DNA of 64,000 bases, taken from assembly GCA_000002445.1 (NCBI GenBank), contig CP000068.1, positions 672,001 to 736,000 of the forward strand, given 5' to 3'. The notes below the pieces were generated by a model. It was not told where the DNA came from and did not search any database. It saw only the letters and a list, made by a program, of their open reading frames with translations. The position numbers were made by a program, and so were the translations under genes. Shown piece by piece: positions 13,637-33,230 of this stretch; within the stretch, counting starts at the first letter, position 1, and every line of letters starts with the position of its first letter. Origin of the DNA: Trypanosoma brucei. Its lineage: Eukaryota.

Positions 13637-13720
13637 GGTGTGTGCCTGTACGAGTGCTAGATAAAAAGCTCTCAGTACTTGTCGTCTTGGCCCCCATGTA
13701 TAAACTGAGATGGCTGTTAT

Positions 13721-17480: not shown

Positions 17481-18856
17481 TTTTGTCCCGCAACGATCGT
17501 GGAGCGGTAAAAAGCAAGGCGCTGCCATGGCGCCGCTGCGGGAGTGCGCCGTTGCGCGCTGTCTGGCACGCTCGTGGTGAATAGCGCGCGCTCATGAGCG
17601 CGTGAGGCCTTCTATTGTTCCGGCACCCCGCTACGCTGATACCAGCTGAATTCAGGGTTAGGAGCACCCATCAGCATGTCAAATGCTGCGGCGAGGTGGT
17701 GGGGAAAGTCTCTCCAGTTGGGGCTCCATCAGTTACAAGCTACCCGCTTACAGCGGCTGACTCCGTATAGAAAATTATCACTGCGTTTCCGCGCCGCGTT
17801 GGAAGCGTTGCCAACAGACATGGAGACGTCAAGTCTCTCCCAGATTCAGACAAAAAATCGAAAAAAAGAACAGCCAGGCTAAAAAAAAAAAAATTGGCAC
17901 ATTAATAGATAGGAGATAGGAGATAAATGCTGTCAACAATACACTCCATGTTAAACATTTCCTTCTCCACCCAGAAGAGGTGGGTAAAATACCAACGTTG
18001 CCCCTAACGACCCTATATGGGGGTGGCACCAACCGTGCAGTTGAAACCAATATCAACTTGATGGGAAGAGCCTTCCCTGAAATCGATATCTTAAAGAGTA
18101 AAAGGCTGTCGAGGCCGTACACGAGACTTACCAACGCAGCTAGTGTTGTCTCGTTTTATTCCGTGTCTCCCATCAATGCGAGATGTTCACATATGACATT
18201 CGATGCCACACTATTGACCGGTGGACGGTGCGAGATTGCATCACCACAGCCCTTCCCTCAATAAGTACACCAAGTCCAATACAAACAAGATAATGAAGCA
18301 CACCTTGCCTTTCCACATCACGGCCGATAGCGTTTGGTACCCAGTTTTCTTTCGATATAGCGAATTAAAGAAAGTAGCACCATCGTTGACCAGCACAAAA
18401 CGATCAGGAAGTTACAAAGACAGAATCAACTAAACAGCCCAAAAACGACAAAGTTCCTTATTTTCACATACAGCACAACCCAAAGAAAAGCACCCCTACT
18501 ACGTTTCCAGGAGCAGCAGAGGTTTGTTGCCGCCTACCGCTGTCAAAAGCATTCCATGTTATAATTTGTTTGCCGCGCTTGGTCTCGTGATGCTGAGTGA
18601 TTGTGCCTGTGTTTGTGGTTTCACCCCCTCTTGTCACGCCTTCCGCGGTTGGTGTGATTCCATTTGTGTTTGTTTCATGTGTTTTGTTTCCCTCACTACA
18701 TTGTGTGGTGAGGTTTGCTACTCTTATGATGAGTGCGCCTTGTGCCGCGTGCGTGTGTAGTGCTCATTTACCACTTGCTGCTTTCCCTTAACCTATTTCT
18801 GGATGAAAGAGACTTTACTCTTGTTTTTACCCACGTTCAAGCCGACACGGATAACA

Positions 18857-19207
18857 ATGGCCACCTGCCCTAAACACCTGTTCGGGAAGTACCATCTAAA
18901 GAGTTTTAATGGCAAAAGCGCCTTGGAGGGCGAACTGGCCGGTGTGACACTGGAGCTTGGTGAAGAAGACGGTCGTGTCACAGTACGCGCGAAGGCGGGA
19001 AATGCGATGAGTGGTGTGTTGAAGTATGAAGGTGGGATGCTCACCGGTCCCTTGATGTCTACAATGATGATGCCTCCCCCTGCTGTCTTGAAAGTAGAAC
19101 GAACCCTCGTGTCCGGTTTTTCCAGCGGTATGCATGCGCTCCGTGAAGGCTCTTCTCTTACGCTTTCGCATAAGACAGACACGATGGTGTTTGAGGCCGT
19201 GGAGTAA
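18857..19207 (+). CDS. Array gene C, copy 0 (diverged edge copy): 117-aa soluble protein with FABP/calycin-like N-terminal motif
   Basis: MATCPKHLFGKYHLKSFNGKSALEGELAGVTLELGEEDGRVTVRAKAGNAMSGVLKYEGGMLTG... A polypyrimidine tract and AG lie immediately upstream of this ATG. The listed 134-aa ORF starts 54 nt further upstream, inside the acceptor region. Confidence 0.6.
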   Translation: MATCPKHLFGKYHLKSFNGKSALEGELAGVTLELGEEDGRVTVRAKAGNAMSGVLKYEGGMLTGPLMSTMMMPPPAVLKVERTLVSGFSSGMHALREGSSLTLSHKTDTMVFEAVE

Positions 19208-20333
19208 ACTTGTTTCTCGACATGCAGTTACCCTTTTATTTTCTACTTGTGTTGCCACTACACTTTCGTGTTTGTGGTCGGTGTTAGCGAACACTACCTT
19301 TGTTTACCACTTAGTGTTATGTTATTTATTTTTGAAATCGGGTTATTATTTTTATTTTTTTTTTCCAGGGTGTAGATATTTGAACCCTAATAAACGTCAA
19401 CGTTTTGTTAATTTATACGGGGGTACGTGTTTTTTTATTTGTTATCGAGGTATAGGCCTTCTGTCATGGTGACTACTGGACATTTTCGCTTCCTCTTTGC
19501 TGGATGCTCCCTGAATACTCAACGTAATAGTATGAAGAAAAGTGAGATGGTAGGCGGGGAATAAGTGTATGTAAGGAGTATATATTGTACGGACATCGGT
19601 AGTGGTGATGATGTTGAGATTCTCTCTCTTAAAGGTTATATCTTTGTATCAACTGATTCGGTACATAAGATCAGATTTTAAATACTATCTTCTATTTATT
19701 ATTTATTATGGAGTGTGATAATTAAAATGTAAGGGCAAATTATCTAACTGCTTATGATCAGTTGATTAGGTAGCGAGTAGTTTAGATAGTATCTTATATT
19801 TAGGAGGTGAGGTGTCCATCTGTAGTAATGGAAGAAATTGTTTGTAAGGATCGACGGCAGTGCAGATAAAACAAATATCGAAGTATATATATATGTATAG
19901 AAGTTTGGCTCAGCGACAGAGATACAATATTCTGCAAAAATAAGATATAAATATTTCATCATTACCCTACCATGCACAGATTATCGATGTGTATCCAACA
20001 AGGTGGGCGCGTGCGACTCCTTCAAGCATTCCATGTTATAATTTGTTTGCCGCGCTTGGTCTCGTGATGCTGAGCGATTGTGCCTGTGTTTGTGGTTTCA
20101 CCCCCTCTTGTCACGCCTTCCGCGGTTGGTGTGATTCCATTTGTGTTTGTTTCATGTGTTTTGTTTCCCTCACTACATTGTGTGGTGAGGTTTGCTACTC
20201 TTATGATGAGTGCGCCTTGTGCCGCGTGCGTGTGTAGTGCTCATTTACCACTTGCTGCTTTCCCTTAACCTATTTCTGGATGAAAGAGACTTTACTCTTG
20301 TTTTTACCCACGTTCAAGCCGACACGGATAACA

Positions 20334-20684
20334 ATGGCCACCTGCCCTAAACACCTGTTCGGGAAGTACCATCTAAAGAGTTTTAATGGCAAAAGCGCCT
20401 TGGAGGGCGAACTGGCCGGTGTGACACTGGAGCTTGGTGAAGAAGACGGTCGTGTCACAGTACGCGCGAAGGCGGGAAATGCGATGAATGGTGTGTTGAA
20501 GTATGAAGGTGGGATGCTCACCGGTCCCTTGATATCCACTATTATGCTCTCGCCCCCTGCTTTGATGGAGGTGGAGAGTGCTTTCAGTTCTGGATTTTCC
20601 AGCGGTATGCATGCGCTCCGTGAAGGCTCTTCTCTTACGCTTTCGCATAAGACAGACACGATGGTGTTTGAGGCCGTGGAGTAA
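20334..20684 (+). CDS. Array gene C, copy 1: 117-aa FABP/calycin-like protein
   Basis: Same as 18857..19207 except for the variable patch GPLISTIMLSPPALMEVESAFSSG. Confidence 0.6.
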   Translation: MATCPKHLFGKYHLKSFNGKSALEGELAGVTLELGEEDGRVTVRAKAGNAMNGVLKYEGGMLTGPLISTIMLSPPALMEVESAFSSGFSSGMHALREGSSLTLSHKTDTMVFEAVE

Positions 20685-20984
20685 AGGTGACGGGCATACG
20701 TTAGTGTGTGTTTTGTTTATACGGTGATGTAAAAAATGACTTAAATTTTCATCTGTTTTTCGGTTATATTGTAGGTGCATATTCAACTTTCTCAATACCT
20801 AATGGCGGTACTATTAGTATTATTTTTTTTAAATACTTTCCTTGTTCACGAATATGTGATATCTACTGATTCGTATGAGCACTTTTGTTTTTTTATGCGT
20901 CTTCCTGTCTTCGCTAGCGTTTTGTTGTTGATGTATTTCTTGATTTGCTTTTCGTTTCTTTCTTTATGCTCTATACCTTTTTTT

Positions 20985-21042
20985 GCCTTTCCCTTGTATC
21001 CGCATATTCTCGTCCTCTGGTCTCTACTCCGCCATATTTATT
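20985..21042 (+). promoter_or_regulatory. Polypyrimidine tract / probable trans-splice acceptor region upstream of array gene A (recurs every 4182 bp)
   Basis: cctttttttgcctttcccttgtatccgcatattctcgtcctctggtctctactccgcc, then AG dinucleotides before the ATG at 21111. Confidence 0.4.
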
Positions 21043-21110
21043 CATGTAGTGCATGTAGTACTGGTTTGCATCCCGTGGAAACCTCTGCTTTTGTGTAGCA
21101 CCCGCGATTT

Positions 21111-22541
21111 ATGGCATCAGACAATGAGTCCACTGTCGAGGTGAGGGAGGCTCGTGACACCGAGGAGTACGATGCGCAGGCTGCTGCTCGTGGGCTGTGT
21201 GACAAGGCATGTGACATAAAGAGCCTTCTACATGGGCACGTTGAGTCGACGCGTGCCCTCGAAAGGGTTGTTGGGGAATTTTGCACTCGCGACATCGCTG
21301 AAGAGGATGCCTTCCGGAAAATCTCTCTCGACGTTATGCATGCCGAAATGCGGGCGCTACGGGACCTTCACTACGTTGCATTTTCCCAGCGGTGGGCAGA
21401 GGTAGAAAAGGGCTCCGCTGCAGAGGAGGTCACCAGCCTACCTTCAGCGGATAGGAGTGTTGGAAGTTGCGTGTCCCACCTTCTGACCTCGCTTTGTGAG
21501 GGAAAGCCTGATGCAACTTTTAGCCTTTCAGAGTATTTTGGTGTCGCTGACGTGCTTATGGAATGGCGCTCGTTAACTCCAGCATCACAGGAACAGTTGG
21601 ATATTCTTCTTCTGTCAATAACCAGGAGCGTGGAGGACATTTCATCATGTGTCCTGCTGCTGAATGGGGTTTTATATACACCATCTGATTCATTTGATTG
21701 TTGTGAACTCACTCGACGGGAGCTCACCGCGATAATTGGAAGTGGGGGACCCGCTTCCGCGGAAGAGGCACTTGTTGGATGGCTTAATTTTATTGTGAGA
21801 CGCTCGTTACTCAACCAGACCCTTCTCCAGAGGCTGATGAGTTCGACCATCGAGTTTCGGAGAAGTGATCTTTGCCTACAGGGCGACGGCGCAGACGTGC
21901 TGGTTGTAGTCGACCACAGGCGGTTGTTGAACTCCGCTGTCTTTCGTGGGTTTTTCTTTTCTGGGGAGTTGCGTGGTGTAGAGGCTATTGGGGCGCAGGT
22001 GAACTTGATGTCAGTATTATTTGCAGGCAACGGCAGCGGAGATCAGCTTGACATAGAGAAGTGTATCGCCGACATTTTCCGCGCTTTATGGGAGCAGCAG
22101 GAACTGCTTTCATGTAAGTGGAAGAACGTTACTGTGACCCTCGCTGTTCAAGCCAGGAAGGACGTCGGAGCCGGCGCTCAAACCAAGTTGATGGACTTCG
22201 TTGTGCTCGATCTTCGCCCCCTGTCGCCGAACATTCCTTTTCAGTGGCACTTTACATGGGGCGAGGTCTGTGCACTAGGCCAGCTCAGTACGAATGACGG
22301 AGATAGAGCACGACCCCTGGACATTCCTGTTTTCAAGACGACTCGTGTAGCTGTAGCCTCTCTGGGGCCTTATGATAAACTTTCACGCATAATGTTCCCT
22401 TCGATTAACGAGTATTTACGTCTTACGCGGAAAGAGCCACCATCTGTAGCCCCAGTCGCCTACGCTGCCGTCGCGGCGGCGCTTGTCGTCGGGGGATTTA
22501 TTGTTGGAAGCTGCATACTCGGTTCCCGGCGAAGACGATGA
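21111..22541 (+). CDS. Array gene A, copy 1: 476-aa tail-anchored membrane protein, no recognisable domain
   Basis: No N-terminal signal peptide (MASDNESTVEVREARD...). A single C-terminal hydrophobic helix (VAPVAYAAVAAALVVGGFIVGSCILG) is followed only by SRRRR-stop. A strong polypyrimidine tract lies upstream (20985..21042). Confidence 0.75.
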   Translation: MASDNESTVEVREARDTEEYDAQAAARGLCDKACDIKSLLHGHVESTRALERVVGEFCTRDIAEEDAFRKISLDVMHAEMRALRDLHYVAFSQRWAEVEKGSAAEEVTSLPSADRSVGSCVSHLLTSLCEGKPDATFSLSEYFGVADVLMEWRSLTPASQEQLDILLLSITRSVEDISSCVLLLNGVLYTPSDSFDCCELTRRELTAIIGSGGPASAEEALVGWLNFIVRRSLLNQTLLQRLMSSTIEFRRSDLCLQGDGADVLVVVDHRRLLNSAVFRGFFFSGELRGVEAIGAQVNLMSVLFAGNGSGDQLDIEKCIADIFRALWEQQELLSCKWKNVTVTLAVQARKDVGAGAQTKLMDFVVLDLRPLSPNIPFQWHFTWGEVCALGQLSTNDGDRARPLDIPVFKTTRVAVASLGPYDKLSRIMFPSINEYLRLTRKEPPSVAPVAYAAVAAALVVGGFIVGSCILGSRRRR

Positions 22542-22789
22542 GCAGTATCCGCCTCTGCTTTTTTCTGTTCATCTTGTTTTATTGACTTTAGAGCCATATT
22601 TAGGCTCCGCTATGCGTCCTTGTTGGTTAGAGGTTTAGTATTGTTGTACCTGACTCTGTGACTGATGGTGGGTGCCGCACCGTATCTGCGGCATGGGGTG
22701 CTTGCGTGAGTGAGGATCCACACTTATTTGACCGCTGTTTGCTATGAAATGTTTCCCTCCTTTCCTACTTGTAGCCAAGTTAATATTGC

Positions 22790-24130
22790 ATGATGGATAT
22801 TACTGCGTTGTGCGGAAACTATCGGTTGTGTGAGATTGACGGAAAGACGTGCTCCGAGGAAGTGTTTATTGCTCTAGAGGCGTCTGGTGGTGGTGTTGAG
22901 GTTGTTGCCATGGTGGGCAACACCCTGTGCGGGCGCGCTTGTGTGAATGGGGACAGGATTAGTGCGAACCTTACTAGCACTATGAGGCAGGTGGAAGAAG
23001 AGATGATGAGGATTGAAAGCCTGCTGACATGCGGGTTCAAGGCCGGGTTTACCTGTGAGCAGAGTGACATCATACTGACGCTGACTGGAGAGCAGAGTGT
23101 CTTCACATTGGAGCGTGATGTATTATGTGATATAAAGTTTGGTGAGTATACCCTCTGTGAGTTCAATGGGGAACCCGTGGCTTCGGACGAGATGGTGCTC
23201 ACCCTGCTCCCCGCTGTGGTAGATGGTGCCCTTGTGATTGCACAGTTCAAAAACTCTCTCCGCGGGGAGCTGGAGCTTCGCAATGGTCGTCTCCGCGGCG
23301 TTATTGCGTCGACGATGTGCGAGGTGGATGGTTCTTTGAAGTGCGCGGAGGAAGCGTTTTTGTCAGCTACCAGGGGTGATGGCATAAAAGTGTGCTCTGA
23401 CGACCACCGGCTTGTGCTTAAGGACGACCACAATGCGTTCGTTTATGTGCTGCGTCCAGCAATTCCAGAGAACCTTGTGAGCGAGTACTTACTGAAGAGC
23501 TTCAATGGCGAGTCTGTAGAGGCTGAGAGGCGTGTGATGTTCCGCTTTTCCCAATCAGCTGACGGTGTCGGTACGGATGTTGTGGCGAGTGTTGCCAATA
23601 CGATCAGGGGGAAGGTAAGAGTGGATGACGGAAAGTTAAAATCGAAGGTGATGTCATCACGAAGGAAAGGGAATGAGTCGGAGATGCGATTTGAGAATGC
23701 TCTGAAGGAAGGGTTCAAGGCTGGGTTTTCGTGGTCTCTGGACGACACGGTGCTGACTCTTGAGTGCGACGGGAACCGCCTCATCTTCGTGAAAGTTGCC
23801 GCTGTGCCGTGCGAAAATGGTAGGCCGGGGTATATTGGTGATAAGGTTTCAAGATGCTTTAAGGCCCACGACGATGCTCGAGTGTACCGTATCATCAACA
23901 CTGTGGAATCGAAGTGGGCATTTTACAATGACACGACCGAATACAATTTTAATGTGTCAGTGACTTTTGGGCGGAAATCAAAGGTACGCGGTCTGGCCAA
24001 CACGTCAATTGAGACAAATGAGGAAGGCTTGACGGTTGCCAGCGTGTCAGTCGCCCCTGGTGCGACGGAGATGTTCGTTGCTGGGGATGTAAACGGGTAC
24101 AAGTGCTCCTATGACGCAGTGCACCAGTAG
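22790..24130 (+). CDS. Array gene B, copy 1: 446-aa protein built of ~4 tandem FABP/calycin-like domains (~110 aa each)
   Basis: The internal repeats start CGNYRLCEIDGK, FGEYTLCEFNGE, SEYLLKSFNGE, plus a diverged fourth. The first and third repeats end with the motifs RIESLLTCGFKAGFTCEQSDIILTLTGEQ and RFENALKEGFKAGFSWSLDDTVLTLECDG. The start motifs are the same G-x-Y-x-L-x-S/E-F/I-N-G signature as gene C. Confidence 0.75.
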   Translation: MMDITALCGNYRLCEIDGKTCSEEVFIALEASGGGVEVVAMVGNTLCGRACVNGDRISANLTSTMRQVEEEMMRIESLLTCGFKAGFTCEQSDIILTLTGEQSVFTLERDVLCDIKFGEYTLCEFNGEPVASDEMVLTLLPAVVDGALVIAQFKNSLRGELELRNGRLRGVIASTMCEVDGSLKCAEEAFLSATRGDGIKVCSDDHRLVLKDDHNAFVYVLRPAIPENLVSEYLLKSFNGESVEAERRVMFRFSQSADGVGTDVVASVANTIRGKVRVDDGKLKSKVMSSRRKGNESEMRFENALKEGFKAGFSWSLDDTVLTLECDGNRLIFVKVAAVPCENGRPGYIGDKVSRCFKAHDDARVYRIINTVESKWAFYNDTTEYNFNVSVTFGRKSKVRGLANTSIETNEEGLTVASVSVAPGATEMFVAGDVNGYKCSYDAVHQ

Positions 24131-24515
24131 CCGACATTGCGTTGAGTGTTGATCCGGATGTAAGATACACATATGTATGCGGAGGTGGGCGCGTGCGACT
24201 CCTTCAAGCATTCCATGTTATAATTTGTTTGCCGCGCTTGGTCTCGTGATGCTGAGCGATTGTGCCTGTGTTTGTGGTTTCACCCCCTCTTGTCACGCCT
24301 TCCGCGGTTGGTGTGATTCCATTTGTGTTTGTTTCATGTGTTTTGTTTCCCTCACTACATTGTGTGGTGAGGTTTGCTACTCTTATGATGAGTGCGCCTT
24401 GTGCCGCGTGCGTGTGTAGTGCTCATTTACCACTTGCTGCTTTCCCTTAACCTATTTCTGGATGAAAGAGACTTTACTCTTGTTTTTACCCACGTTCAAG
24501 CCGACACGGATAACA

Positions 24516-24866
24516 ATGGCCACCTGCCCTAAACACCTGTTCGGGAAGTACCATCTAGAGAGTTTTAATGGCAAAAGCGCCTTGGAGGGCGAACTGGCCG
24601 GTGTGACACTGGAGCTTGGTGAAGAAGACGGTCGTGTCACAGTACGCGCGAAGGCGGGAAATGCGATGAATGGTGTGTTGAAGTATGAAGGTGGGATGCT
24701 CACCGGCGTCTTGATATCCACTATTATGCTCTCGCCCCCTGCTTTGATGGAGGTGGAGAGTGCTTTCAGTTCTGGATTTTCCAGCGGTATGCATGCGCTC
24801 CGTGAAGGCTCTTCTCTTACGCTTTCGCATAAGACAGACACGATGGTGTTTGAGGCCGTGGAGTAA
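24516..24866 (+). CDS. Array gene C, copy 2: 117-aa FABP/calycin-like protein
   Basis: Identical to copy 3. Differs from copy 1 at K->E (HLESFNG) and P->V (TGVLIST). Confidence 0.6.
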   Translation: MATCPKHLFGKYHLESFNGKSALEGELAGVTLELGEEDGRVTVRAKAGNAMNGVLKYEGGMLTGVLISTIMLSPPALMEVESAFSSGFSSGMHALREGSSLTLSHKTDTMVFEAVE

Positions 24867-25292
24867 AGGTGACGGGCATACGTTAGTGTGTGTTTTGTTT
24901 ATACGGTGATGTAAAAAATGACTTAAATTTTCATCTGTTTTTCGGTAATATTGTAGGTGCATATTCAACTCTTTGAATTTCTAATGGCGGTACTATTAGT
25001 ATTATTTTTTTTAAATACTTTCCTTGTTCACGAATATGTGATATCTACTGATTCGTATGAGCACTTTTGTTTTTTTATGCGTCTTCCTGTCTTCGCTAGC
25101 GTTTTGTTGTTGATGTATTTCTTGATTTGCTTTTCGTTTCTTTCTTTATGCTCTATACCTTTTTTTGCCTTTCCCTTGTATCCGCATATTCTCGTCCTCT
25201 GGTCTCTACTCCGCCATATTTATTCATGTAGTGCATGTAGTACTGGTTTGCATCCCGTGGAAACCTCTGCTTTTGTGTAGCACCCGCGATTT

Positions 25293-26723
25293 ATGGCATC
25301 AGACAATGAGTCCACTGTCGAGGTGAGGGAGGCTCGTGACACCGAGGAGTACGATGCGCAGGCTGCTGCTCGTGGGCTGTGTGACAAGGCATGTGACATA
25401 AAGAGCCTTCTACATGGGCACGTTGAGTCGACGCGTGCCCTCGAAAGGGTTGTTGGGGAATTTTGCACTCGCGACATCGCTGAAGAGGATGCCTTCCGGA
25501 AAATCTCTCTCGACGTTATGCATGCCGAAATGCGGGCGCTACGGGACCTTCACTACGTTGCATTTTCCCAGCGGTGGGCAGAGGTAGAAAAGGGCTCCGC
25601 TGCAGAGGAGGTCACCAGCCTACCTTCAGCGGATAGGAGTGTTGGAAGTTGCGTGTCCCACCTTCTGGCCTCGCTTTGTGAGGGAAAGCCTGATGCAACT
25701 TTTAGCCTTTCAGAGTATTTTGGTGTCGCTGACGTGCTTATGGAATGGCGCTCGTTAACTCCAGCATCACAGGAACAGTTGGATATTCTTCTTCTGTCAA
25801 TAACCAGGAGCGTGGAGGACATTTCATCATGTGTCCTGCTGCTGAATGGGGTTTTATATACACCATCTGATTCATTTGATTGTTGTGAACTCACTCGACG
25901 GGAGCTCACCGCGATAATTGGAAGTGGGGGACCCGCTTCCGCGGAAGAGGCACTTGTTGGATGGCTTAATTTTATTGTGAGACGCTCGTTACTCAACCAG
26001 ACCCTTCTCCAGAGGCTGATGAGTTCGACCATCGAGTTTCGGAGAAGTGATCTTTGCCTACAGGGCGACGGCGCAGACGTGCTGGTTGTAGTCGACCACA
26101 GGCGGTTGTTGAACTCCGCTGTCTTTCGTGGGTTTTTCTTTTCTGGGGAGTTGCGTGGTGTAGAGGCTATTGGGGCGCAGGTGAACTTGATGTCAGTATT
26201 ATTTGCAGGCAACGGCAGCGGAGATCAGCTTGACATAGAGAAGTGTATCGCCGACATTTTCCGCGCTTTATGGGAGCAGCAGGAACTGCTTTCATGTAAG
26301 TGGAAGAACGTTACTGTGACCCTCGCTGTTCAAGCCAGGAAGGACGTCGGAGCCGGCGCTCAAACCAAGTTGATGGACTTCGTTGTGCTCGATCTTCGCC
26401 CCCTGTCGCCGAACATTCCTTTTCAGTGGCACTTTACATGGGGCGAGGTCTGTGCACTAGGCCAGCTCAGTACGAATGACGGAGATAGAGCACGACCCCT
26501 GGACATTCCTGTTTTCAAGACGACTCGTGTAGCTGTAGCCTCTCTGGGGCCTTATGATAAACTTTCACGCATAATGTTCCCTTCGATTAACGAGTATTTA
26601 CGTCTTACGCGGAAAGAGCCACCATCTGTAGCCCCAGTCGCCTACGCTGCCGTCGCGGCGGCGCTTGTCGTCGGGGGATTTATTGTTGGAAGCTGCATAC
26701 TCGGTTCCCGGCGAAGACGATGA
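25293..26723 (+). CDS. Array gene A, copy 2 (T->A at HLLASLCEG relative to copy 1)
   Basis: Exact 4182-bp periodic copy. Confidence 0.75.
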   Translation: MASDNESTVEVREARDTEEYDAQAAARGLCDKACDIKSLLHGHVESTRALERVVGEFCTRDIAEEDAFRKISLDVMHAEMRALRDLHYVAFSQRWAEVEKGSAAEEVTSLPSADRSVGSCVSHLLASLCEGKPDATFSLSEYFGVADVLMEWRSLTPASQEQLDILLLSITRSVEDISSCVLLLNGVLYTPSDSFDCCELTRRELTAIIGSGGPASAEEALVGWLNFIVRRSLLNQTLLQRLMSSTIEFRRSDLCLQGDGADVLVVVDHRRLLNSAVFRGFFFSGELRGVEAIGAQVNLMSVLFAGNGSGDQLDIEKCIADIFRALWEQQELLSCKWKNVTVTLAVQARKDVGAGAQTKLMDFVVLDLRPLSPNIPFQWHFTWGEVCALGQLSTNDGDRARPLDIPVFKTTRVAVASLGPYDKLSRIMFPSINEYLRLTRKEPPSVAPVAYAAVAAALVVGGFIVGSCILGSRRRR

Positions 26724-26971
26724 GCAGTATCCGCCTCTGCTTTTTTCTGTTCATCTTGTTTTATTGACTTTAGAGCCATATTTAGGCTCCGCTATGCGTC
26801 CTTGTTGGTTAGAGGTTTAGTATTGTTGTACCTGACTCTGTGACTGATGGTGGGTGCCGCACCGTATCTGCGGCATGGGGTGCTTGCGTGAGTGAGGATC
26901 CACACTTATTTGACCGCTGTTTGCTATGAAATGTTTCCCTCCTTTCCTACTTGTAGCCAAGTTAATATTGC

Positions 26972-28312
26972 ATGATGGATATTACTGCGTTGTGCGGAAA
27001 CTATCGGTTGTGTGAGATTGACGGAAAGACGTGCTCCGAGGAAGTGTTTATTGCTCTAGAGGCGTCTGGTGGTGGTGTTGAGGTTGTTGCCATGGTGGGC
27101 AACACCCTGTGCGGGCGCGCTTGTGTGAATGGGGACAGGATTAGTGCGAACCTTACTAGCACTATGAGGCAGGTGGAAGAAGAGATGATGAGGATTGAAA
27201 GCCTGCTGACATGCGGGTTCAAGGCCGGGTTTACCTGTGAGCAGAGTGACATCATACTGACGCTGACTGGAGAGCAGAGTGTCTTCACATTGGAGCGTGA
27301 TGTATTATGTGATATAAAGTTTGGTGAGTATACCCTCTGTGAGTTCAATGGGGAACCCGTGGCTTCGGACGAGATGGTGCTCACCCTGCTCCCCGCTGTG
27401 GTAGATGGTGCCCTTGTGATTGCACAGTTCAAAAACTCTCTCCGCGGGGAGCTGGAGCTTCGCAATGGTCGTCTCCGCGGCGTTATTGCGTCGACGATGT
27501 GCGAGGTGGATGGTTCTTTGAAGTGCGCGGAGGAAGCGTTTTTGTCAGCTACCAGGGGTGATGGCATAAAAGTGTGCTCTGACGACCACCGGCTTGTGCT
27601 TAAGGACGACCACAATGCGTTCGTTTATGTGCTGCGTCCAGCAATTCCAGAGAACCTTGTGAGCGAGTACTTACTGAAGAGCTTCAATGGCGAGTCTGTA
27701 GAGGCTGAGAGGCGTGTGATGTTCCGCTTTTCCCAATCAGCTGACGGTGTCGGTACGGATGTTGTGGCGAGTGTTGCCAATACGATCAGGGGGAAGGTAA
27801 GAGTGGATGACGGAAAGTTAAAATCGAAGGTGATGTCATCACGAAGGAAAGGGAATGAGTCGGAGATGCGATTTGAGAATGCTCTGAAGGAAGGGTTCAA
27901 GGCTGGGTTTTCGTGGTCTCTGGACGACACGGTGCTGACTCTTGAGTGCGACGGGAACCGCCTCATCTTCGTGAAAGTTGCCGCTGTGCCGTGCGAAAAT
28001 GGTAGGCCGGGGTATATTGGTGATAAGGTTTCAAGATGCTTTAAGGCCCACGACGATGCTCGAGTGTACCGTATCATCAACACTGTGGAATCGAAGTGGG
28101 CATTTTACAATGACACGACCGAATACAATTTTAATGTGTCAGTGACTTTTGGGCGGAAATCAAAGGTACGCGGTCTGGCCAACACGTCAATTGAGACAAA
28201 TGAGGAAGGCTTGACGGTTGCCAGCGTGTCAGTCGCCCCTGGTGCGACGGAGATGTTCGTTGCTGGGGATGTAAACGGGTACAAGTGCTCCTATGACGCA
28301 GTGCACCAGTAG
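26972..28312 (+). CDS. Array gene B, copy 2
   Basis: Identical protein, 4182-bp period. Confidence 0.75.
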   Translation: MMDITALCGNYRLCEIDGKTCSEEVFIALEASGGGVEVVAMVGNTLCGRACVNGDRISANLTSTMRQVEEEMMRIESLLTCGFKAGFTCEQSDIILTLTGEQSVFTLERDVLCDIKFGEYTLCEFNGEPVASDEMVLTLLPAVVDGALVIAQFKNSLRGELELRNGRLRGVIASTMCEVDGSLKCAEEAFLSATRGDGIKVCSDDHRLVLKDDHNAFVYVLRPAIPENLVSEYLLKSFNGESVEAERRVMFRFSQSADGVGTDVVASVANTIRGKVRVDDGKLKSKVMSSRRKGNESEMRFENALKEGFKAGFSWSLDDTVLTLECDGNRLIFVKVAAVPCENGRPGYIGDKVSRCFKAHDDARVYRIINTVESKWAFYNDTTEYNFNVSVTFGRKSKVRGLANTSIETNEEGLTVASVSVAPGATEMFVAGDVNGYKCSYDAVHQ

Positions 28313-28697
28313 CCGACATTGCGTTGAGTGTTGATCCGGATGTAAGATACACATATGTATGCGGAGGTGGGCGCGTGCGACTCCTTCAAGCATTCCATGT
28401 TATAATTTGTTTGCCGCGCTTGGTCTCGTGATGCTGAGCGATTGTGCCTGTGTTTGTGGTTTCACCCCCTCTTGTCACGCCTTCCGCGGTTGGTGTGATT
28501 CCATTTGTGTTTGTTTCATGTGTTTTGTTTCCCTCACTACATTGTGTGGTGAGGTTTGCTACTCTTATGATGAGTGCGCCTTGTGCCGCGTGCGTGTGTA
28601 GTGCTCATTTACCACTTGCTGCTTTCCCTTAACCTATTTCTGGATGAAAGAGACTTTACTCTTGTTTTTACCCACGTTCAAGCCGACACGGATAACA

Positions 28698-29048
28698 ATG
28701 GCCACCTGCCCTAAACACCTGTTCGGGAAGTACCATCTAGAGAGTTTTAATGGCAAAAGCGCCTTGGAGGGCGAACTGGCCGGTGTGACACTGGAGCTTG
28801 GTGAAGAAGACGGTCGTGTCACAGTACGCGCGAAGGCGGGAAATGCGATGAATGGTGTGTTGAAGTATGAAGGTGGGATGCTCACCGGCGTCTTGATATC
28901 CACTATTATGCTCTCGCCCCCTGCTTTGATGGAGGTGGAGAGTGCTTTCAGTTCTGGATTTTCCAGCGGTATGCATGCGCTCCGTGAAGGCTCTTCTCTT
29001 ACGCTTTCGCATAAGACAGACACGATGGTGTTTGAGGCCGTGGAGTAA
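28698..29048 (+). CDS. Array gene C, copy 3: 117-aa FABP/calycin-like protein
   Basis: Identical to copy 2. Confidence 0.6.
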   Translation: MATCPKHLFGKYHLESFNGKSALEGELAGVTLELGEEDGRVTVRAKAGNAMNGVLKYEGGMLTGVLISTIMLSPPALMEVESAFSSGFSSGMHALREGSSLTLSHKTDTMVFEAVE

Positions 29049-29474
29049 AGGTGACGGGCATACGTTAGTGTGTGTTTTGTTTATACGGTGATGTAAAAAA
29101 TGACTTAAATTTTCATCTGTTTTTCGGTAATATTGTAGGTGCATATTCAACTCTTTGAATTTCTAATGGCGGTACTATTAGTATTATTTTTTTTAAATAC
29201 TTTCCTTGTTCACGAATATGTGATATCTACTGATTCGTATGAGCACTTTTGTTTTTTTATGCGTCTTCCTGTCTTCGCTAGCGTTTTGTTGTTGATGTAT
29301 TTCTTGATTTGCTTTTCGTTTCTTTCTTTATGCTCTATACCTTTTTTTGCCTTTCCCTTGTATCCGCATATTCTCGTCCTCTGGTCTCTACTCCGCCATA
29401 TTTATTCATGTAGTGCATGTAGTACTGGTTTGCATCCCGTGGAAACCTCTGCTTTTGTGTAGCACCCGCGATTT

Positions 29475-30905
29475 ATGGCATCAGACAATGAGTCCACTGT
29501 CGAGGTGAGGGAGGCTCGTGACACCGAGGAGTACGATGCGCAGGCTGCTGCTCGTGGGCTGTGTGACAAGGCATGTGACATAAAGAGCCTTCTACATGGG
29601 CACGTTGAGTCGACGCGTGCCCTCGAAAGGGTTGTTGGGGAATTTTGCACTCGCGACATCGCTGAAGAGGATGCCTTCCGGAAAATCTCTCTCGACGTTA
29701 TGCATGCCGAAATGCGGGCGCTACGGGACCTTCACTACGTTGCATTTTCCCAGCGGTGGGCAGAGGTAGAAAAGGGCTCCGCTGCAGAGGAGGTCACCAG
29801 CCTACCTTCAGCGGATAGGAGTGTTGGAAGTTGCGTGTCCCACCTTCTGGCCTCGCTTTGTGAGGGAAAGCCTGATGCAACTTTTAGCCTTTCAGAGTAT
29901 TTTGGTGTCGCTGACGTGCTTATGGAATGGCGCTCGTTAACTCCAGCATCACAGGAACAGTTGGATATTCTTCTTCTGTCAATAACCAGGAGCGTGGAGG
30001 ACATTTCATCATGTGTCCTGCTGCTGAATGGGGTTTTATATACACCATCTGATTCATTTGATTGTTGTGAACTCACTCGACGGGAGCTCACCGCGATAAT
30101 TGGAAGTGGGGGACCCGCTTCCGCGGAAGAGGCACTTGTTGGATGGCTTAATTTTATTGTGAGACGCTCGTTACTCAACCAGACCCTTCTCCAGAGGCTG
30201 ATGAGTTCGACCATCGAGTTTCGGAGAAGTGATCTTTGCCTACAGGGCGACGGCGCAGACGTGCTGGTTGTAGTCGACCACAGGCGGTTGTTGAACTCCG
30301 CTGTCTTTCGTGGGTTTTTCTTTTCTGGGGAGTTGCGTGGTGTAGAGGCTATTGGGGCGCAGGTGAACTTGATGTCAGTATTATTTGCAGGCAACGGCAG
30401 CGGAGATCAGCTTGACATAGAGAAGTGTATCGCCGACATTTTCCGCGCTTTATGGGAGCAGCAGGAACTGCTTTCATGTAAGTGGAAGAACGTTACTGTG
30501 ACCCTCGCTGTTCAAGCCAGGAAGGACGTCGGAGCCGGCGCTCAAACCAAGTTGATGGACTTCGTTGTGCTCGATCTTCGCCCCCTGTCGCCGAACATTC
30601 CTTTTCAGTGGCACTTTACATGGGGCGAGGTCTGTGCACTAGGCCAGCTCAGTACGAATGACGGAGATAGAGCACGACCCCTGGACATTCCTGTTTTCAA
30701 GACGACTCGTGTAGCTGTAGCCTCTCTGGGGCCTTATGATAAACTTTCACGCATAATGTTCCCTTCGATTAACGAGTATTTACGTCTTACGCGGAAAGAG
30801 CCACCATCTGTAGCCCCAGTCGCCTACGCTGCCGTCGCGGCGGCGCTTGTCGTCGGGGGATTTATTGTTGGAAGCTGCATACTCGGTTCCCGGCGAAGAC
30901 GATGA
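29475..30905 (+). CDS. Array gene A, copy 3
   Basis: Identical to copy 2. Confidence 0.75.
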   Translation: MASDNESTVEVREARDTEEYDAQAAARGLCDKACDIKSLLHGHVESTRALERVVGEFCTRDIAEEDAFRKISLDVMHAEMRALRDLHYVAFSQRWAEVEKGSAAEEVTSLPSADRSVGSCVSHLLASLCEGKPDATFSLSEYFGVADVLMEWRSLTPASQEQLDILLLSITRSVEDISSCVLLLNGVLYTPSDSFDCCELTRRELTAIIGSGGPASAEEALVGWLNFIVRRSLLNQTLLQRLMSSTIEFRRSDLCLQGDGADVLVVVDHRRLLNSAVFRGFFFSGELRGVEAIGAQVNLMSVLFAGNGSGDQLDIEKCIADIFRALWEQQELLSCKWKNVTVTLAVQARKDVGAGAQTKLMDFVVLDLRPLSPNIPFQWHFTWGEVCALGQLSTNDGDRARPLDIPVFKTTRVAVASLGPYDKLSRIMFPSINEYLRLTRKEPPSVAPVAYAAVAAALVVGGFIVGSCILGSRRRR

Positions 30906-31153
30906 GCAGTATCCGCCTCTGCTTTTTTCTGTTCATCTTGTTTTATTGACTTTAGAGCCATATTTAGGCTCCGCTATGCGTCCTTGTTGGTTAGAGGTTT
31001 AGTATTGTTGTACCTGACTCTGTGACTGATGGTGGGTGCCGCACCGTATCTGCGGCATGGGGTGCTTGCGTGAGTGAGGATCCACACTTATTTGACCGCT
31101 GTTTGCTATGAAATGTTTCCCTCCTTTCCTACTTGTAGCCAAGTTAATATTGC

Positions 31154-32494
31154 ATGATGGATATTACTGCGTTGTGCGGAAACTATCGGTTGTGTGAGAT
31201 TGACGGAAAGACGTGCTCCGAGGAAGTGTTTATTGCTCTAGAGGCGTCTGGTGGTGGTGTTGAGGTTGTTGCCATGGTGGGCAACACCCTGTGCGGGCGC
31301 GCTTGTGTGAATGGGGACAGGATTAGTGCGAACCTTACTAGCACTATGAGGCAGGTGGAAGAAGAGATGATGAGGATTGAAAGCCTGCTGACATGCGGGT
31401 TCAAGGCCGGGTTTACCTGTGAGCAGAGTGACATCATACTGACGCTGACTGGAGAGCAGAGTGTCTTCACATTGGAGCGTGATGTATTATGTGATATAAA
31501 GTTTGGTGAGTATACCCTCTGTGAGTTCAATGGGGAACCCGTGGCTTCGGACGAGATGGTGCTCACCCTGCTCCCCGCTGTGGTAGATGGTGCCCTTGTG
31601 ATTGCACAGTTCAAAAACTCTCTCCGCGGGGAGCTGGAGCTTCGCAATGGTCGTCTCCGCGGCGTTATTGCGTCGACGATGTGCGAGGTGGATGGTTCTT
31701 TGAAGTGCGCGGAGGAAGCGTTTTTGTCAGCTACCAGGGGTGATGGCATAAAAGTGTGCTCTGACGACCACCGGCTTGTGCTTAAGGACGACCACAATGC
31801 GTTCGTTTATGTGCTGCGTCCAGCAATTCCAGAGAACCTTGTGAGCGAGTACTTACTGAAGAGCTTCAATGGCGAGTCTGTAGAGGCTGAGAGGCGTGTG
31901 ATGTTCCGCTTTTCCCAATCAGCTGACGGTGTCGGTACGGATGTTGTGGCGAGTGTTGCCAATACGATCAGGGGGAAGGTAAGAGTGGATGACGGAAAGT
32001 TAAAATCGAAGGTGATGTCATCACGAAGGAAAGGGAATGAGTCGGAGATGCGATTTGAGAATGCTCTGAAGGAAGGGTTCAAGGCTGGGTTTTCGTGGTC
32101 TCTGGACGACACGGTGCTGACTCTTGAGTGCGACGGGAACCGCCTCATCTTCGTGAAAGTTGCCGCTGTGCCGTGCGAAAATGGTAGGCCGGGGTATATT
32201 GGTGATAAGGTTTCAAGATGCTTTAAGGCCCACGACGATGCTCGAGTGTACCGTATCATCAACACTGTGGAATCGAAGTGGGCATTTTACAATGACACGA
32301 CCGAATACAATTTTAATGTGTCAGTGACTTTTGGGCGGAAATCAAAGGTACGCGGTCTGGCCAACACGTCAATTGAGACAAATGAGGAAGGCTTGACGGT
32401 TGCCAGCGTGTCAGTCGCCCCTGGTGCGACGGAGATGTTCGTTGCTGGGGATGTAAACGGGTACAAGTGCTCCTATGACGCAGTGCACCAGTAG
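31154..32494 (+). CDS. Array gene B, copy 3
   Basis: Identical protein, 4182-bp period. Confidence 0.75.
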   Translation: MMDITALCGNYRLCEIDGKTCSEEVFIALEASGGGVEVVAMVGNTLCGRACVNGDRISANLTSTMRQVEEEMMRIESLLTCGFKAGFTCEQSDIILTLTGEQSVFTLERDVLCDIKFGEYTLCEFNGEPVASDEMVLTLLPAVVDGALVIAQFKNSLRGELELRNGRLRGVIASTMCEVDGSLKCAEEAFLSATRGDGIKVCSDDHRLVLKDDHNAFVYVLRPAIPENLVSEYLLKSFNGESVEAERRVMFRFSQSADGVGTDVVASVANTIRGKVRVDDGKLKSKVMSSRRKGNESEMRFENALKEGFKAGFSWSLDDTVLTLECDGNRLIFVKVAAVPCENGRPGYIGDKVSRCFKAHDDARVYRIINTVESKWAFYNDTTEYNFNVSVTFGRKSKVRGLANTSIETNEEGLTVASVSVAPGATEMFVAGDVNGYKCSYDAVHQ

Positions 32495-32879
32495 CCGACA
32501 TTGCGTTGAGTGTTGATCCGGATGTAAGATACACATATGTATGCGGAGGTGGGCGCGTGCGACTCCTTCAAGCATTCCATGTTATAATTTGTTTGCCGCG
32601 CTTGGTCTCGTGATGCTGAGCGATTGTGCCTGTGTTTGTGGTTTCACCCCCTCTTGTCACGCCTTCCGCGGTTGGTGTGATTCCATTTGTGTTTGTTTCA
32701 TGTGTTTTGTTTCCCTCACTACATTGTGTGGTGAGGTTTGCTACTCTTATGATGAGTGCGCCTTGTGCCGCGTGCGTGTGTAGTGCTCATTTACCACTTG
32801 CTGCTTTCCCTTAACCTATTTCTGGATGAAAGAGACTTTACTCTTGTTTTTACCCACGTTCAAGCCGACACGGATAACA

Positions 32880-33230
32880 ATGGCCACCTGCCCTAAACAC
32901 CTGTTCGGGAAGTACCATCTAAAGAGTTTTAATGGCAAAAGCGCCTTGGAGGGCGAACTGGCCGGTGTGACACTGGAGCTTGGTGAAGAAGACGGTCGTG
33001 TCACAGTACGCGCGAAGGCGGGAAATGCGATGAATGGTGTGTTGAAGTATGAAGGTGGGATGCTCACCGGTCCCTTGATGTCCACAAGAATGATGCCGCC
33101 CCCTGCTTTGATGGAGGTGGAGAGTGCTTTCAGTTCTGGATTTTCCAGCGGTATGCATGCGCTCCGTGAAGGCTCTTCTCTTACGCTTTCGCATAAGACA
33201 GACACGATGGTGTTTGAGGCCGTGGAGTAA
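32880..33230 (+). CDS. Array gene C, copy 4 (edge copy, mosaic variable patch): 117-aa FABP/calycin-like protein
   Basis: GPLMSTRMMPPPALMEVESAFSSG. The left part resembles copy 0 and the right part the internal copies. It is followed by the same tail sequence as copy 0. Confidence 0.6.
   Translation: MATCPKHLFGKYHLKSFNGKSALEGELAGVTLELGEEDGRVTVRAKAGNAMNGVLKYEGGMLTGPLMSTRMMPPPALMEVESAFSSGFSSGMHALREGSSLTLSHKTDTMVFEAVE

What the first reader, a model, noticed from the sequence alone, without database searches (positions are those of the whole stretch)
21111..22541. 476-aa tail-anchored protein co-amplified with the FABP-like genes
The N-terminus is acidic and clearly cytosolic. The only hydrophobic segment is the last ~25 residues, followed by RRRR and the stop codon. 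This is the classic tail-anchored (GET/TRC40-inserted) architecture. No catalytic motif is recognisable. Its fixed position between genes C and B in every unit suggests functional coupling, for example as a membrane receptor or anchor for the soluble FABP-like proteins.
Basis: seen in the sequence. Interest (0 to 1): 0.5.

Follow-up and report, generated by a model that had tools for sequence, protein, structure and literature searches.

The report
Mitochondrial tail-anchored Cdc123-like protein
The 476-residue gene repeated three times in this Trypanosoma brucei window encodes a protein anchored by its tail in the mitochondrial outer membrane, and its cytosolic part is an unrecognised, probably non-catalytic relative of the translation-factor assembly chaperone Cdc123.

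Summary
ORF 21111-22541 (476 aa) is real and present in three near-identical copies. It has an acidic N-terminus, one hydrophobic stretch (aa ~446-470) and a GSRRRR end.

The window is T. brucei chromosome 5, and the gene is Tb927.5.2180/2210/2240. The neighbouring "FABP-like" genes are META1-like and META2-like META-domain genes.

- **Tail anchor:** supported, and conserved in 35 of 41 family members.
- **Destination:** the mitochondrion, not the ER/GET route. N-terminal tagging gives a genuine mitochondrial signal, while C-terminal tagging gives only background. The T. congolense orthologue fractionates with mitochondrial outer or inner membrane.
- **Separate gene:** T. brucei also has a classical CDC123, so this is a paralogue family found across kinetoplastids.
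- **Coupling to META proteins:** not supported. The amplification is specific to T. brucei, distant homologues are unlinked to META genes, and META1 localises elsewhere.

I call it a new variant of a known kind, of moderate interest.

The parts
21111..22541 (+). Copy 1 of the 476-aa gene (Tb927.5.2180/2210/2240 type), stop codon included
   Evidence: ORF list. It is 99% identical to a T. brucei gambiense hypothetical protein. TrypTag primers match both ends exactly.
25293..26723 (+). Copy 2 of the same gene
   Evidence: It differs from copy 1 by 1 nt (T126A).
29475..30905 (+). Copy 3 of the same gene
   Evidence: It is identical to copy 2.
21111..21173 (+). Acidic, poorly conserved, disordered N-terminus (aa 1-21). 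It shows no signal peptide and no basic amphipathic presequence.
   Evidence: Composition, pLDDT below 50 for aa 1-16, and alignment A1.
21174..21422 (+). Family-specific pair of long helices (aa 22-104). It carries F57, R60 and D61, which are near-invariant, and E64, which is invariant.
   Evidence: AF2 secondary structure H22-84 and H86-104 with pLDDT 85-95. Column counts. This region has no counterpart in the Cdc123 alignment.
21462..22433 (+). Divergent Cdc123-like (R2K.1) ATP-grasp-fold domain (aa ~118-441). Its motifs are NG (185-186), FRGFFF (278-283), E291, VVLDLRPLSP (364-373), FTWGEVC (381-387) and PVFKTTRVAVASLGPYD (406-422).
22446..22520 (+). C-terminal transmembrane segment (aa ~446-470, VAPVAYAAVAAALVVGGFIVGSCIL): the tail anchor
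   Evidence: Hydropathy peak of 2.41. A segment at the same position is present in 35 of 41 family members.
22521..22538 (+). Short basic tail GSRRRR (net +4), followed by the stop codon at 22539-22541
   Evidence: Basic tails of net +2 to +5 occur in most family members.
20024..32569 (+). Three tandem 4182-bp units. Each carries a META1-like gene, the 476-aa gene and a META2-like gene.
   Evidence: the repeat finder spacing of 4182. Unit comparison. Pfam hits for the META genes.
22790..24130 (+). META2-like neighbour (446 aa: three META stretches plus DUF1935). It is context, not part of the protein.
   Evidence: Pfam PF03724 and PF09149. Gene IDs Tb927.5.2190/2220/2250.
20280..20684 (+). META1-like neighbour. 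The ORF is 134 aa, but the published protein is 116 aa, so the likely start is the second ATG at 20334. It is context.
   Evidence: Pfam PF03724. The 116-aa length comes from PMC7952579.

Best explanation
The gene encodes a tail-anchored protein of the mitochondrial outer membrane. A single C-terminal helix followed by a short basic tail (GSRRRR) inserts post-translationally. The remaining ~445 residues face the cytosol.

That cytosolic part has two elements. The first is a family-specific pair of long helices. The second is a strongly diverged Cdc123-type (R2K.1) ATP-grasp-fold domain. The protein is a kinetoplastid paralogue of the eIF2-assembly factor Cdc123, distinct from the classical T. 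brucei CDC123 (Tb11.01.0660).

Most canonical nucleotide/Mg-binding residues of Cdc123 are replaced, while the structural core motifs are kept. It therefore most likely acts as a non-catalytic, or at least non-canonical, binding or assembly platform at the mitochondrial surface, not as a classical ATP-dependent ligase.

The three copies in this window result from a recent T. brucei-specific tandem duplication of a 4.18-kb block that also carries the META1-like and META2-like genes.

**Shown:** ORF structure, conservation of the tail-anchor architecture, fold similarity, motif alignment, loss of catalytic residues, and mitochondrial localisation (from published data sets).
**Inferred:** outer-membrane topology with the N-terminus facing the cytosol, lack of enzymatic activity, and the adaptor/chaperone role.
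For: **Architecture**
- There is one hydrophobic segment at aa ~446-470 followed by GSRRRR.
- The N-terminus is acidic and an in-frame stop lies 4 codons upstream.
- The TMD plus basic tail is conserved in 35 of 41 homologues, from Trypanosoma and Leishmania to distant unnamed relatives.

**Localisation**
- TrypTag Table S3: N-tagged Tb927.5.2180 is 'mitochondrion' and not faint.
- C-tagged Tb927.5.2180 and Tb927.5.2240 give only 'endocytic/cytoplasm reticulated' and are flagged fainter than parental. This is what is expected if the free C-terminus is the targeting signal.
- hyperLOPIT lists the T. congolense orthologue TcIL3000.A.H_000414300 as 'mitochondrion - OM' in one data set and 'mitochondrion - IM' in another.
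- The protein was detected by mass spectrometry at 18.9% coverage.

**Fold**
- The AF2 model has pLDDT 83.8.
- The Foldseek top 10 hits are all Cdc123, with E 1.4e-6 to 7.5e-5.
- hhalign of the family against a Cdc123 alignment gives E=5e-5. It aligns FRGFFF with EFRCFV, VVLDLRPLSP with WLIDFNPFGE, FTWGEVC with FTWEEL, and PVFKTTRVAVASLGPY with PAFRCTNSEVTVQPSPY.

**Paralogy:** the classical T. brucei CDC123 (Tb11.01.0660) is listed in the alignment of Burroughs et al..

**Catalytic residues** (human CDC123 numbering from PMC4431377; counts)
- D233 corresponds to T343; no acidic residue is common at this column.
- N248 corresponds to R369; N is not among the six commonest residues there.
- D246 corresponds to D367, kept in 29 of 41.
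- R179 corresponds to R279, kept in 39 of 41.
- The K104 strand reads V-L-L-L-N-G, and no lysine is among the commonest residues at positions 181-184.
Against: - No experiment shows membrane integration or topology.
- hyperLOPIT gave IM in one data set, and the TAGM probability there was low (0.026, 'unknown').
- Mapping K104 and R111 onto this protein rests on the order of secondary-structure elements and a low-confidence part of the profile alignment. It does not rest on a coordinate superposition.
- Several charged residues are very strongly conserved: R60, E64, R153, R279, E291, K/R409 and D422. They could form a rebuilt active or nucleotide-binding site, so loss of activity is not proven.
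- The hhalign probability is only 67%, and no family member hits Pfam D123.
- A small syntenic clade lacks the TMD altogether, so membrane anchoring is not obligatory for the family.
Confidence: 0.72

Rival explanations
1. One reading: an ER-directed, GET/TRC40-inserted tail-anchored protein that serves as membrane receptor or anchor for the soluble META ('FABP-like') proteins encoded next to it.
For: - The tail-anchored architecture is real.
- The gene sits between META genes throughout Trypanosomatidae: T. theileri L001, Novymonas L002, and unnamed L004/L006.
- Tb927.5.2240 was down-regulated together with META1 and META2 transcripts in ZC3H45 RNAi.
- C-terminally tagged protein was annotated 'cytoplasm[reticulated], endocytic'.
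Against: - That C-tag signal is flagged fainter than the parental line, so it is background, and a C-terminal tag masks a tail anchor. The N-tag is mitochondrial, and LOPIT places the orthologue in mitochondrial membranes.
- META1 (Tb927.5.2230) localises to cytoplasm, flagellar tip and nucleus, not to mitochondria.
- Distant homologues are not next to META genes.
- From established knowledge, gene order in trypanosomatid polycistronic units is broadly syntenic regardless of function.
- The identical order within units is a by-product of a duplication specific to T. brucei.
- The apparent META2 fusion protein P0016 contains translated T-rich intergenic sequence, which I read as a read-through gene model.
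Confidence: 0.07
2. An active, membrane-tethered ATP-grasp enzyme: a peptide/amide ligase or ATPase that modifies or remodels substrates at the mitochondrial surface through a rebuilt active site.
For: - It has a Cdc123/ATP-grasp fold.
- The ExR arginine (R279, 39/41) and the first Asp of DxN (D367, 29/41) are retained.
- Further charged residues are near-invariant: R60, E64, R153, E291, K/R409 and D422. These could compensate, as Burroughs et al. propose for the second lysine of the R2K clade.
- Classical CDC123 has been reported to be an ATPase (PMC12860950).
Against: - There is no lysine in the strand equivalent to K104 and no conserved basic residue in the loop after it.
- D233 and N248 are replaced by T and R, and are variable across the family.
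- D367 itself is H, N, G, S or Y in about 30% of members.
- The KLNWSAPRDA ATP-pocket motif, reported as fully conserved in eukaryotic CDC123, is absent.
Confidence: 0.2
3. A tail-anchored protein of another organelle, glycosome or dual glycosome/mitochondrion, because a strongly basic tail (+4) favours peroxisomal targeting in other eukaryotes. Alternatively, an inner-membrane protein.
For: - The tail is GSRRRR. The rule that a highly charged tail favours peroxisomes comes from my own knowledge of mammalian tail-anchored proteins.
- One LOPIT data set lists 'mitochondrion - IM'.
Against: - The gene IDs are absent from the held supplementary files of the glycosomal membrane inventory.
- TrypTag annotates only 'mitochondrion' for the N-tag.
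- The acidic N-terminus is not a presequence, and an N-terminal mNeonGreen tag would block one, yet localisation is still mitochondrial.
Confidence: 0.06

Closest known systems
Classical Cdc123 / D123 (R2K.1 ATP-grasp; human CDC123 PDB 8PHD, S. pombe 4ZGN-4ZGQ; T. brucei Tb11.01.0660)
   Same: - Profile alignment covers the core motifs: FR.F., L.D..P, FTW.E., and the C-terminal .F+.T...V....P motif.
- The order of secondary-structure elements is the same, including the variable loop after RAGNYA strand 2.
   Different: - No family member hits the Pfam D123 model.
- It lacks K104, R111 (the KLNWSAPRDA pocket), D233 and N248.
- It has an extra N-terminal pair of long helices and a C-terminal tail anchor.
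- It is mitochondrial, not cytosolic.
- It coexists with the classical orthologue.
- Binding to eIF2-gamma is untested.
Rapidly evolving second set of CDC123-family proteins in amoeboid eukaryotes, Legionella and giant viruses (Burroughs et al. 2015)
   Same: They are lineage-specific, divergent extra copies of the Cdc123 family that exist beside the classical orthologue.
   Different: - Those are described as multi-copy, HGT-linked, predicted active ligases or effectors.
- This family is kinetoplastid-wide and single-copy except in T. brucei.
- It retains the eukaryote-type C-terminal motif and is membrane-anchored.
- No phylogeny was done here.
Mitochondrial outer-membrane tail-anchored proteins (class definition; in trypanosomes the biogenesis of alpha-helically anchored OM proteins involves pATOM36, PMC6010339 and PMC10432679)
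   Same: - It has a single C-terminal TMD of moderate hydrophobicity rich in A/G/V, a short basic tail and no N-terminal signal.
- Localisation is mitochondrial only when the C-terminus is free.
   Different: - Dependence on pATOM36 or any insertase is untested.
- I did not find it in the main text of any outer-membrane proteome paper held in the library.
Catalytically degenerate ATP-grasp-fold proteins (for example apicomplexan CDC123, which Burroughs et al. say has lost activity; synapsin C-domain as a membrane-associated ATP-grasp fold)
   Different: This is resemblance by analogy only and no specific relationship is implied. Synapsin still binds ATP.

Membership tests
Tail-anchored membrane protein (architectural class) | A single TMD within roughly the last 30-40 residues, too close to the C-terminus for co-translational recognition | tested here: met
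   The hydropathy peak of 2.41 lies at aa 452-470 of 476, and 6 residues follow the TMD.
Tail-anchored membrane protein (architectural class) | No N-terminal signal peptide, no other TMD, and no upstream coding sequence | tested here: met
   The N-terminus is acidic, and the next-best hydrophobic window scores 1.47. An in-frame TAG lies 4 codons upstream. Orthologues start at the same position.
Tail-anchored membrane protein (architectural class) | Post-translational membrane insertion with the N-terminal domain in the cytosol | not testable with these tools
   Only indirect evidence exists. The N-terminal tag is tolerated and is mitochondrial, whereas the C-terminal tag yields background only.
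GET/TRC40-dependent ER tail-anchored proteins | Steady-state localisation in the ER or secretory pathway | tested here: not met
   Published data sets give mitochondrion for the N-tag and mitochondrial OM/IM by LOPIT in T. congolense. The 'reticulated/endocytic' C-tag signal is flagged as fainter than parental.
GET/TRC40-dependent ER tail-anchored proteins | Dependence on Get3/TRC40 for insertion | not testable with these tools
   No data are available.
Mitochondrial outer-membrane tail-anchored proteins | A moderately hydrophobic TMD flanked by basic residues at the extreme C-terminus | tested here: met
   The TMD is rich in A/G/V/S/C and the tail has net charge +4. Similar features occur in 35 of 41 homologues.
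Mitochondrial outer-membrane tail-anchored proteins | Outer-membrane localisation | tested here: inconclusive
   Mitochondrion by microscopy. OM in one LOPIT data set and IM in another, with low TAGM probability. No sub-mitochondrial biochemistry is available.
Cdc123 / R2K.1 ATP-grasp family | ATP-grasp fold (RAGNYA domain plus protein-kinase-like domain) closest to Cdc123 | tested here: met
   [not shown]
Cdc123 / R2K.1 ATP-grasp family | Sequence membership (Pfam D123, PF07065) | tested here: not met
   None of the 41 family members matches PF07065 even at E<=1, and there is no PDB sequence hit. Only profile-profile comparison detects the relationship (E 5e-5, probability 67%).
Cdc123 / R2K.1 ATP-grasp family | Absolutely conserved lysine in RAGNYA strand 2 (human K104), plus a second K/R in the following loop (R111) | tested here: not met
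   The equivalent strand reads C-V-L-L-L-N-G. Lysine is not among the commonest residues at positions 181-184, and no conserved basic residue follows. The mapping is by secondary-structure order and is low-confidence in hhalign.
Cdc123 / R2K.1 ATP-grasp family | [quoted passage not shown] | tested here: inconclusive
   R279 is conserved in 39 of 41. The E position is hydrophobic (L, V, T, P or M).
Cdc123 / R2K.1 ATP-grasp family | Acidic residue in strand 4 (D233) and the DxN Mg-binding motif (D246, N248) | tested here: not met
   D233 corresponds to T343 (T, L, I, S or V). D246 corresponds to D367 in only 29 of 41. N248 corresponds to R369 (R, H, Q, A, S or C).
Cdc123 / R2K.1 ATP-grasp family | Binds eIF2-gamma domain III and promotes eIF2 assembly | not testable with these tools
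   No interaction data are available. A classical CDC123 exists separately in T. brucei.
   The 134-aa ORF hits at E 1.7e-15. The 446-aa ORF has three META stretches plus DUF1935 at E 4e-34. The 476-aa protein itself has no META domain.

The most novel reading that the evidence does not exclude
Kinetoplastids carry a second, mitochondrion-anchored Cdc123 paralogue that has kept the client-binding chaperone function of Cdc123. It would capture a translational GTPase-type or other beta-barrel client at the outer membrane, for example to couple cytosolic translation or factor assembly to the mitochondrial surface. Alternatively it works as an atypical ATP-dependent protein modifier of outer-membrane or import substrates.
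Probability: 0.15. Interest if true: 0.8.

Novelty: new variant of a known kind. Interest (0 to 1): 0.55.

Why it matters
- **A fold for an unannotated family.** Databases label this gene 'hypothetical protein, conserved' or 'transmembrane protein'. It is conserved across Trypanosoma, Leishmania, Phytomonas, Leptomonas, Novymonas and more distant unnamed relatives. It now has a fold assignment and a testable location.
- **New for Cdc123 biology.** The literature I could search describes Cdc123 relatives only as cytosolic eIF2 assembly factors or as bacterial/amoebal effectors. I found no membrane-tethered, organelle-bound paralogue with a remodelled nucleotide pocket.
- **An addition to the trypanosome mitochondrial outer membrane.** That membrane has a highly unusual protein set. 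The domain suggests concrete experiments: nucleotide binding, partner identification, and pATOM36 dependence.
- **A correction.** It removes a misleading reading of the locus. The neighbours are META genes, and co-amplification is not evidence of a receptor-ligand pair.

Tried and rejected
- **Pfam scan** of the protein and of all 41 family members: only chance-level hits, and no D123.
- **Sequence and profile searches against PDB:** nothing meaningful; the profile's best hit was an IgG Fc chance match, and no Cdc123 hit at E<=10.
- **First AF2 run** with 9 Trypanosoma sequences gave pLDDT 61, too poor to use. It was replaced by the 41-sequence run.
- **Third word-index homology search** with the profile added nothing new.
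- **afdb50 fold library** was not available.
- **Global hhalign and an N-domain-only hhalign** could not place the K104 strand with confidence.
- **Literature look-ups that failed:** the Niemann 2013 outer-membrane proteome is not held, and guessed Leishmania gene IDs gave nothing useful.
- **Glycosomal membrane inventory supplements:** the gene is absent.
- **Msp1 pull-down supplement:** the protein is detected, but I could not interpret enrichment because the sheet header was not read.
- **Rfam scan of the window:** no hits.
- **GPI-anchor signal rejected.** There is no signal peptide, and the polybasic end is incompatible with one.
- **Fusion protein P0016 rejected** as evidence of functional linkage. 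Its linker looks like translated T-rich intergenic sequence, which I read as a read-through gene model.
- **Stop-codon reassignment rejected** as the reason for the TMD-less clade. No TMD follows in frame.
Full report
**1. What is in the sequence**

ORF 21111-22541 (+) encodes 476 aa. An in-frame TAG lies four codons upstream of the ATG (sequence), so no longer reading frame is possible. Trypanosomatid genes are almost never spliced in cis (established knowledge).

The ORF recurs at 25293-26723 and 29475-30905. One nucleotide differs between copy 1 and the other two (T126A). The copies lie in a 4182-bp unit repeated three times from 20024. Units 2 and 3 are identical and unit 1 differs at 11 positions.

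The first 60 residues are acidic (13 D/E against 8 K/R). The only strongly hydrophobic stretch is aa ~446-470, with a Kyte-Doolittle 19-mer maximum of 2.41. The next best stretch elsewhere scores 1.47. The protein ends GSRRRR.

**2. Identity of the locus**

The protein is 99% identical to a 'hypothetical protein, conserved' of T. brucei gambiense. Orthologues at 44-54% identity exist in T. congolense, T. vivax, T. grayi, T. rangeli, T. theileri and T. melophagium.

- a 134-aa ORF with one META domain (published as 116 aa);
- a 446-aa ORF with three META stretches plus DUF1935.

Toh et al. (PMC7952579) describe this cluster at the start of a polycistronic unit on chromosome 5:
- META1-like: Tb927.5.2160/2170/2200/2230/2260;
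- META2-like: Tb927.5.2190/2220/2250;
- by elimination, and from their tables, the 'hypothetical protein, conserved' genes Tb927.5.2180/2210/2240 are the 476-aa gene.

TrypTag tagging primers listed for Tb927.5.2180 and Tb927.5.2240 match the window exactly. They end at 21110 (just before the ATG) and at 22538 (the last sense codon), in all three copies.

The wider window fits a divergent strand-switch region:
- on the minus strand: UPF1, a 531-aa ORF, and an ingi-like retrotransposon;
- on the plus strand, downstream of the META array: an LRR protein, an acyltransferase, a Brr2-type helicase, a formin, a PCIF1-like protein and a Mak10 homologue.

**3. Where the protein goes**

TrypTag Table S3 has the columns 'localisation / fainter than parental / classified as faint' for each terminus.
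- **Tb927.5.2180, N-terminal tag:** 'mitochondrion', not faint.
- **Tb927.5.2180, C-terminal tag:** 'endocytic[weak], cytoplasm[weak,reticulated]', flagged fainter than parental and faint.
- **Tb927.5.2240, C-terminal tag:** the same background-type annotation.

This asymmetry is what is expected when the extreme C-terminus is the targeting and anchoring signal.

In hyperLOPIT spatial proteomics (PMC10361982), the single T. congolense orthologue is listed as 'mitochondrion - OM' in one data set and 'mitochondrion - IM' in another. One TAGM call was low-probability.

Peptides covering 18.9% of the protein were detected in a T. brucei proteomic data set. The gene IDs are absent from the held supplements of a glycosomal membrane inventory.

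The acidic N-terminus is not a presequence, and an N-terminal fluorescent protein would block one. The best reading is a tail-anchored protein of the mitochondrial outer membrane, not an ER/GET client. Outer-membrane topology itself remains inferred.

**4. The family**

An exhaustive profile search found 46 relatives. Named ones come from Leishmania (chromosome 17, 'conserved hypothetical'), Phytomonas, Leptomonas and Novymonas. The more distant ones come from unnamed assemblies whose contigs carry dense, unidirectional genes.

Thirty-five of 41 full-length members have a C-terminal hydrophobic segment followed by a short tail of net +2 to +5. The tail anchor is therefore old and under selection.

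One small clade in a syntenic context lacks the TMD, and no TMD follows in frame.

**5. What the cytosolic domain is**

Sequence-level methods see nothing:
- Pfam finds nothing in any of the 41 members;
- PDB sequence and profile searches find nothing.

With the 41-sequence alignment, AlphaFold2 gives a confident model: pLDDT 83.8, and above 90 for most of aa 120-440.
- **Foldseek against PDB:** Cdc123 from S. pombe and human fills ranks 1-10 (E 1.4e-6 to 7.5e-5). Generic ATP-grasp ligases follow.

I built a Cdc123 alignment from the human sequence (verified 100% identical to PDB 8PHD), the S. pombe chain and vertebrate orthologues. hhalign against the family gives E=5e-5 and probability 67%. 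It aligns these motifs:

| This protein | Human Cdc123 |
|---|---|
| FRGFFF | EFRCFV |
| VVLDLRPLSP | WLIDFNPFGE |
| FTWGEVC | FTWEEL |
| PVFKTTRVAVASLGPY | PAFRCTNSEVTVQPSPY |

The supplementary alignment of Burroughs et al. lists a separate classical T. brucei CDC123, Tb11.01.0660. The 476-aa protein is therefore a paralogue.

**6. Is it an enzyme?**

Burroughs et al. (PMC4431377) define the catalytic constellation of the clade in human numbering. PMC12860950 describes the conserved pocket residues A109 and R111, which lie in the KLNWSAPRDA stretch. Family-wide column counts on the hhalign registration give:

| Human CDC123 | This protein | Conservation in the family (41 sequences) |
|---|---|---|
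| K104 (RAGNYA strand 2) | strand C-V-L-L-L-N-G | Lysine not among the commonest residues at 181-184; N185 in 40 and G186 in 41 |
| R111 (following loop) | no equivalent | No conserved basic residue |
| E177 (of ExR) | V277 | Hydrophobic |
| R179 (of ExR) | R279 | 39 of 41 |
| D233 | T343 | No acidic residue among the commonest |
| D246 | D367 | 29 of 41 |
| N248 | R369 | N not among the commonest |

The K104 and R111 rows rest on the order of secondary-structure elements. That part of the alignment is low-confidence.

About two of six defining residues survive. I therefore favour a non-catalytic or non-canonical role as a binding or assembly platform.

Several other charged residues are almost invariant: R60, E64, R153, E291, K/R409 and D422. 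A rebuilt site cannot be excluded. The N-terminal pair of long helices (aa 22-104) is specific to this family.

**7. Coupling to the META genes**

*For coupling*
- The gene lies among META genes in T. theileri (META1-X-META2-META1), in Novymonas (META2-X-META1) and in unnamed relatives.
- Tb927.5.2240 fell together with META transcripts in ZC3H45 RNAi.

*Against coupling*
- The triplication is specific to T. brucei. T. congolense, T. vivax and T. cruzi each have one copy.
- Fixed order within units follows trivially from block duplication.
- Distant homologues have unrelated neighbours.
- Trypanosomatid polycistronic units are syntenic without being operons (established knowledge).
- META1 localises to cytoplasm and flagellar tip, not to mitochondria.
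- The one 'fusion' protein, P0016, contains what looks like translated intergenic sequence.

I regard the receptor idea as unsupported but not formally excluded.

**8. Novelty and verdict**

Full-text searches found no paper linking Cdc123 to a second, membrane-bound trypanosome protein. The gene itself is catalogued and has a localisation record. What is new is the fold assignment, the family-wide tail-anchor conservation and the degenerate active site.

I class it as a new variant of a known kind and give it moderate interest (0.55).

Noticed in passing
window 11223-15394 (- strand): An ingi-type non-LTR retrotransposon sits in the divergent strand-switch region just upstream of the META array. 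It shows as separate ORFs with a reverse transcriptase (13721-15394, RVT_1 E 5.6e-46), an RNase H (12098-13636) and a Cys/His-rich ORF (11223-12143). The split into separate frames suggests a degenerate copy.
   Followed up: partly
window 18803-19207 and 32826-33230, compared with 20280-20684, 24462-24866 and 28644-29048: There are two META1-like isoforms. The first copy differs from the three internal copies in the C-terminal third (STMMMPPPAVLKVERTLVSGFS against STIMLSPPALMEVESAFSSGFS). The last copy probably differs in the same way, judged from its antisense-ORF length and from the divergence of the fourth repeat after about 500 nt. The array is therefore flanked by a variant META1.
   Followed up: partly
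window 24206-28387 compared with 28388-32569: Repeat units 2 and 3 are 100% identical over all 4182 bp. This could mean very recent duplication or gene conversion, or a collapsed or copied repeat in the assembly. True copy number in the strain could differ.
   Followed up: no
loci L004 (3176-4531), L006 (7001-8335), L007 (1841-3175); proteins P0011, P0014, P0020, P0022: A clade of the family in unnamed assemblies keeps the synteny META2-X-small ORF-LRR-acyltransferase-Brr2. It ends right after the FP..N motif with no transmembrane segment, and none follows in frame. This looks like a naturally soluble version of the protein.
   Followed up: partly
protein P0016 (EukProt, 984 aa): This gene model fuses a META2-like protein to a member of this family through about 150 residues that look like translated T-rich intergenic sequence. 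It is probably a read-through or polycistronic-transcript artefact, not a real fusion.
   Followed up: partly
window 6505-8100 (- strand): A 531-aa ORF with no Pfam match lies between UPF1 and the strand switch. A 531-aa gene occupies the same position in T. theileri (L001 2720-4315), so it is likely a conserved gene of unknown function.
   Followed up: no
window 8001-10000: There is a pronounced AT skew (+0.24) and low GC (0.44) in the gene-poor stretch next to the strand-switch region. The cause was not examined.
   Followed up: no
window 20280-20684 and the other META1-like ORFs: The mechanical ORF is 134 aa, but the published protein is 116 aa. Translation probably starts at the second ATG (MATCPKHLFGKY...), 54 nt downstream.
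   Followed up: no
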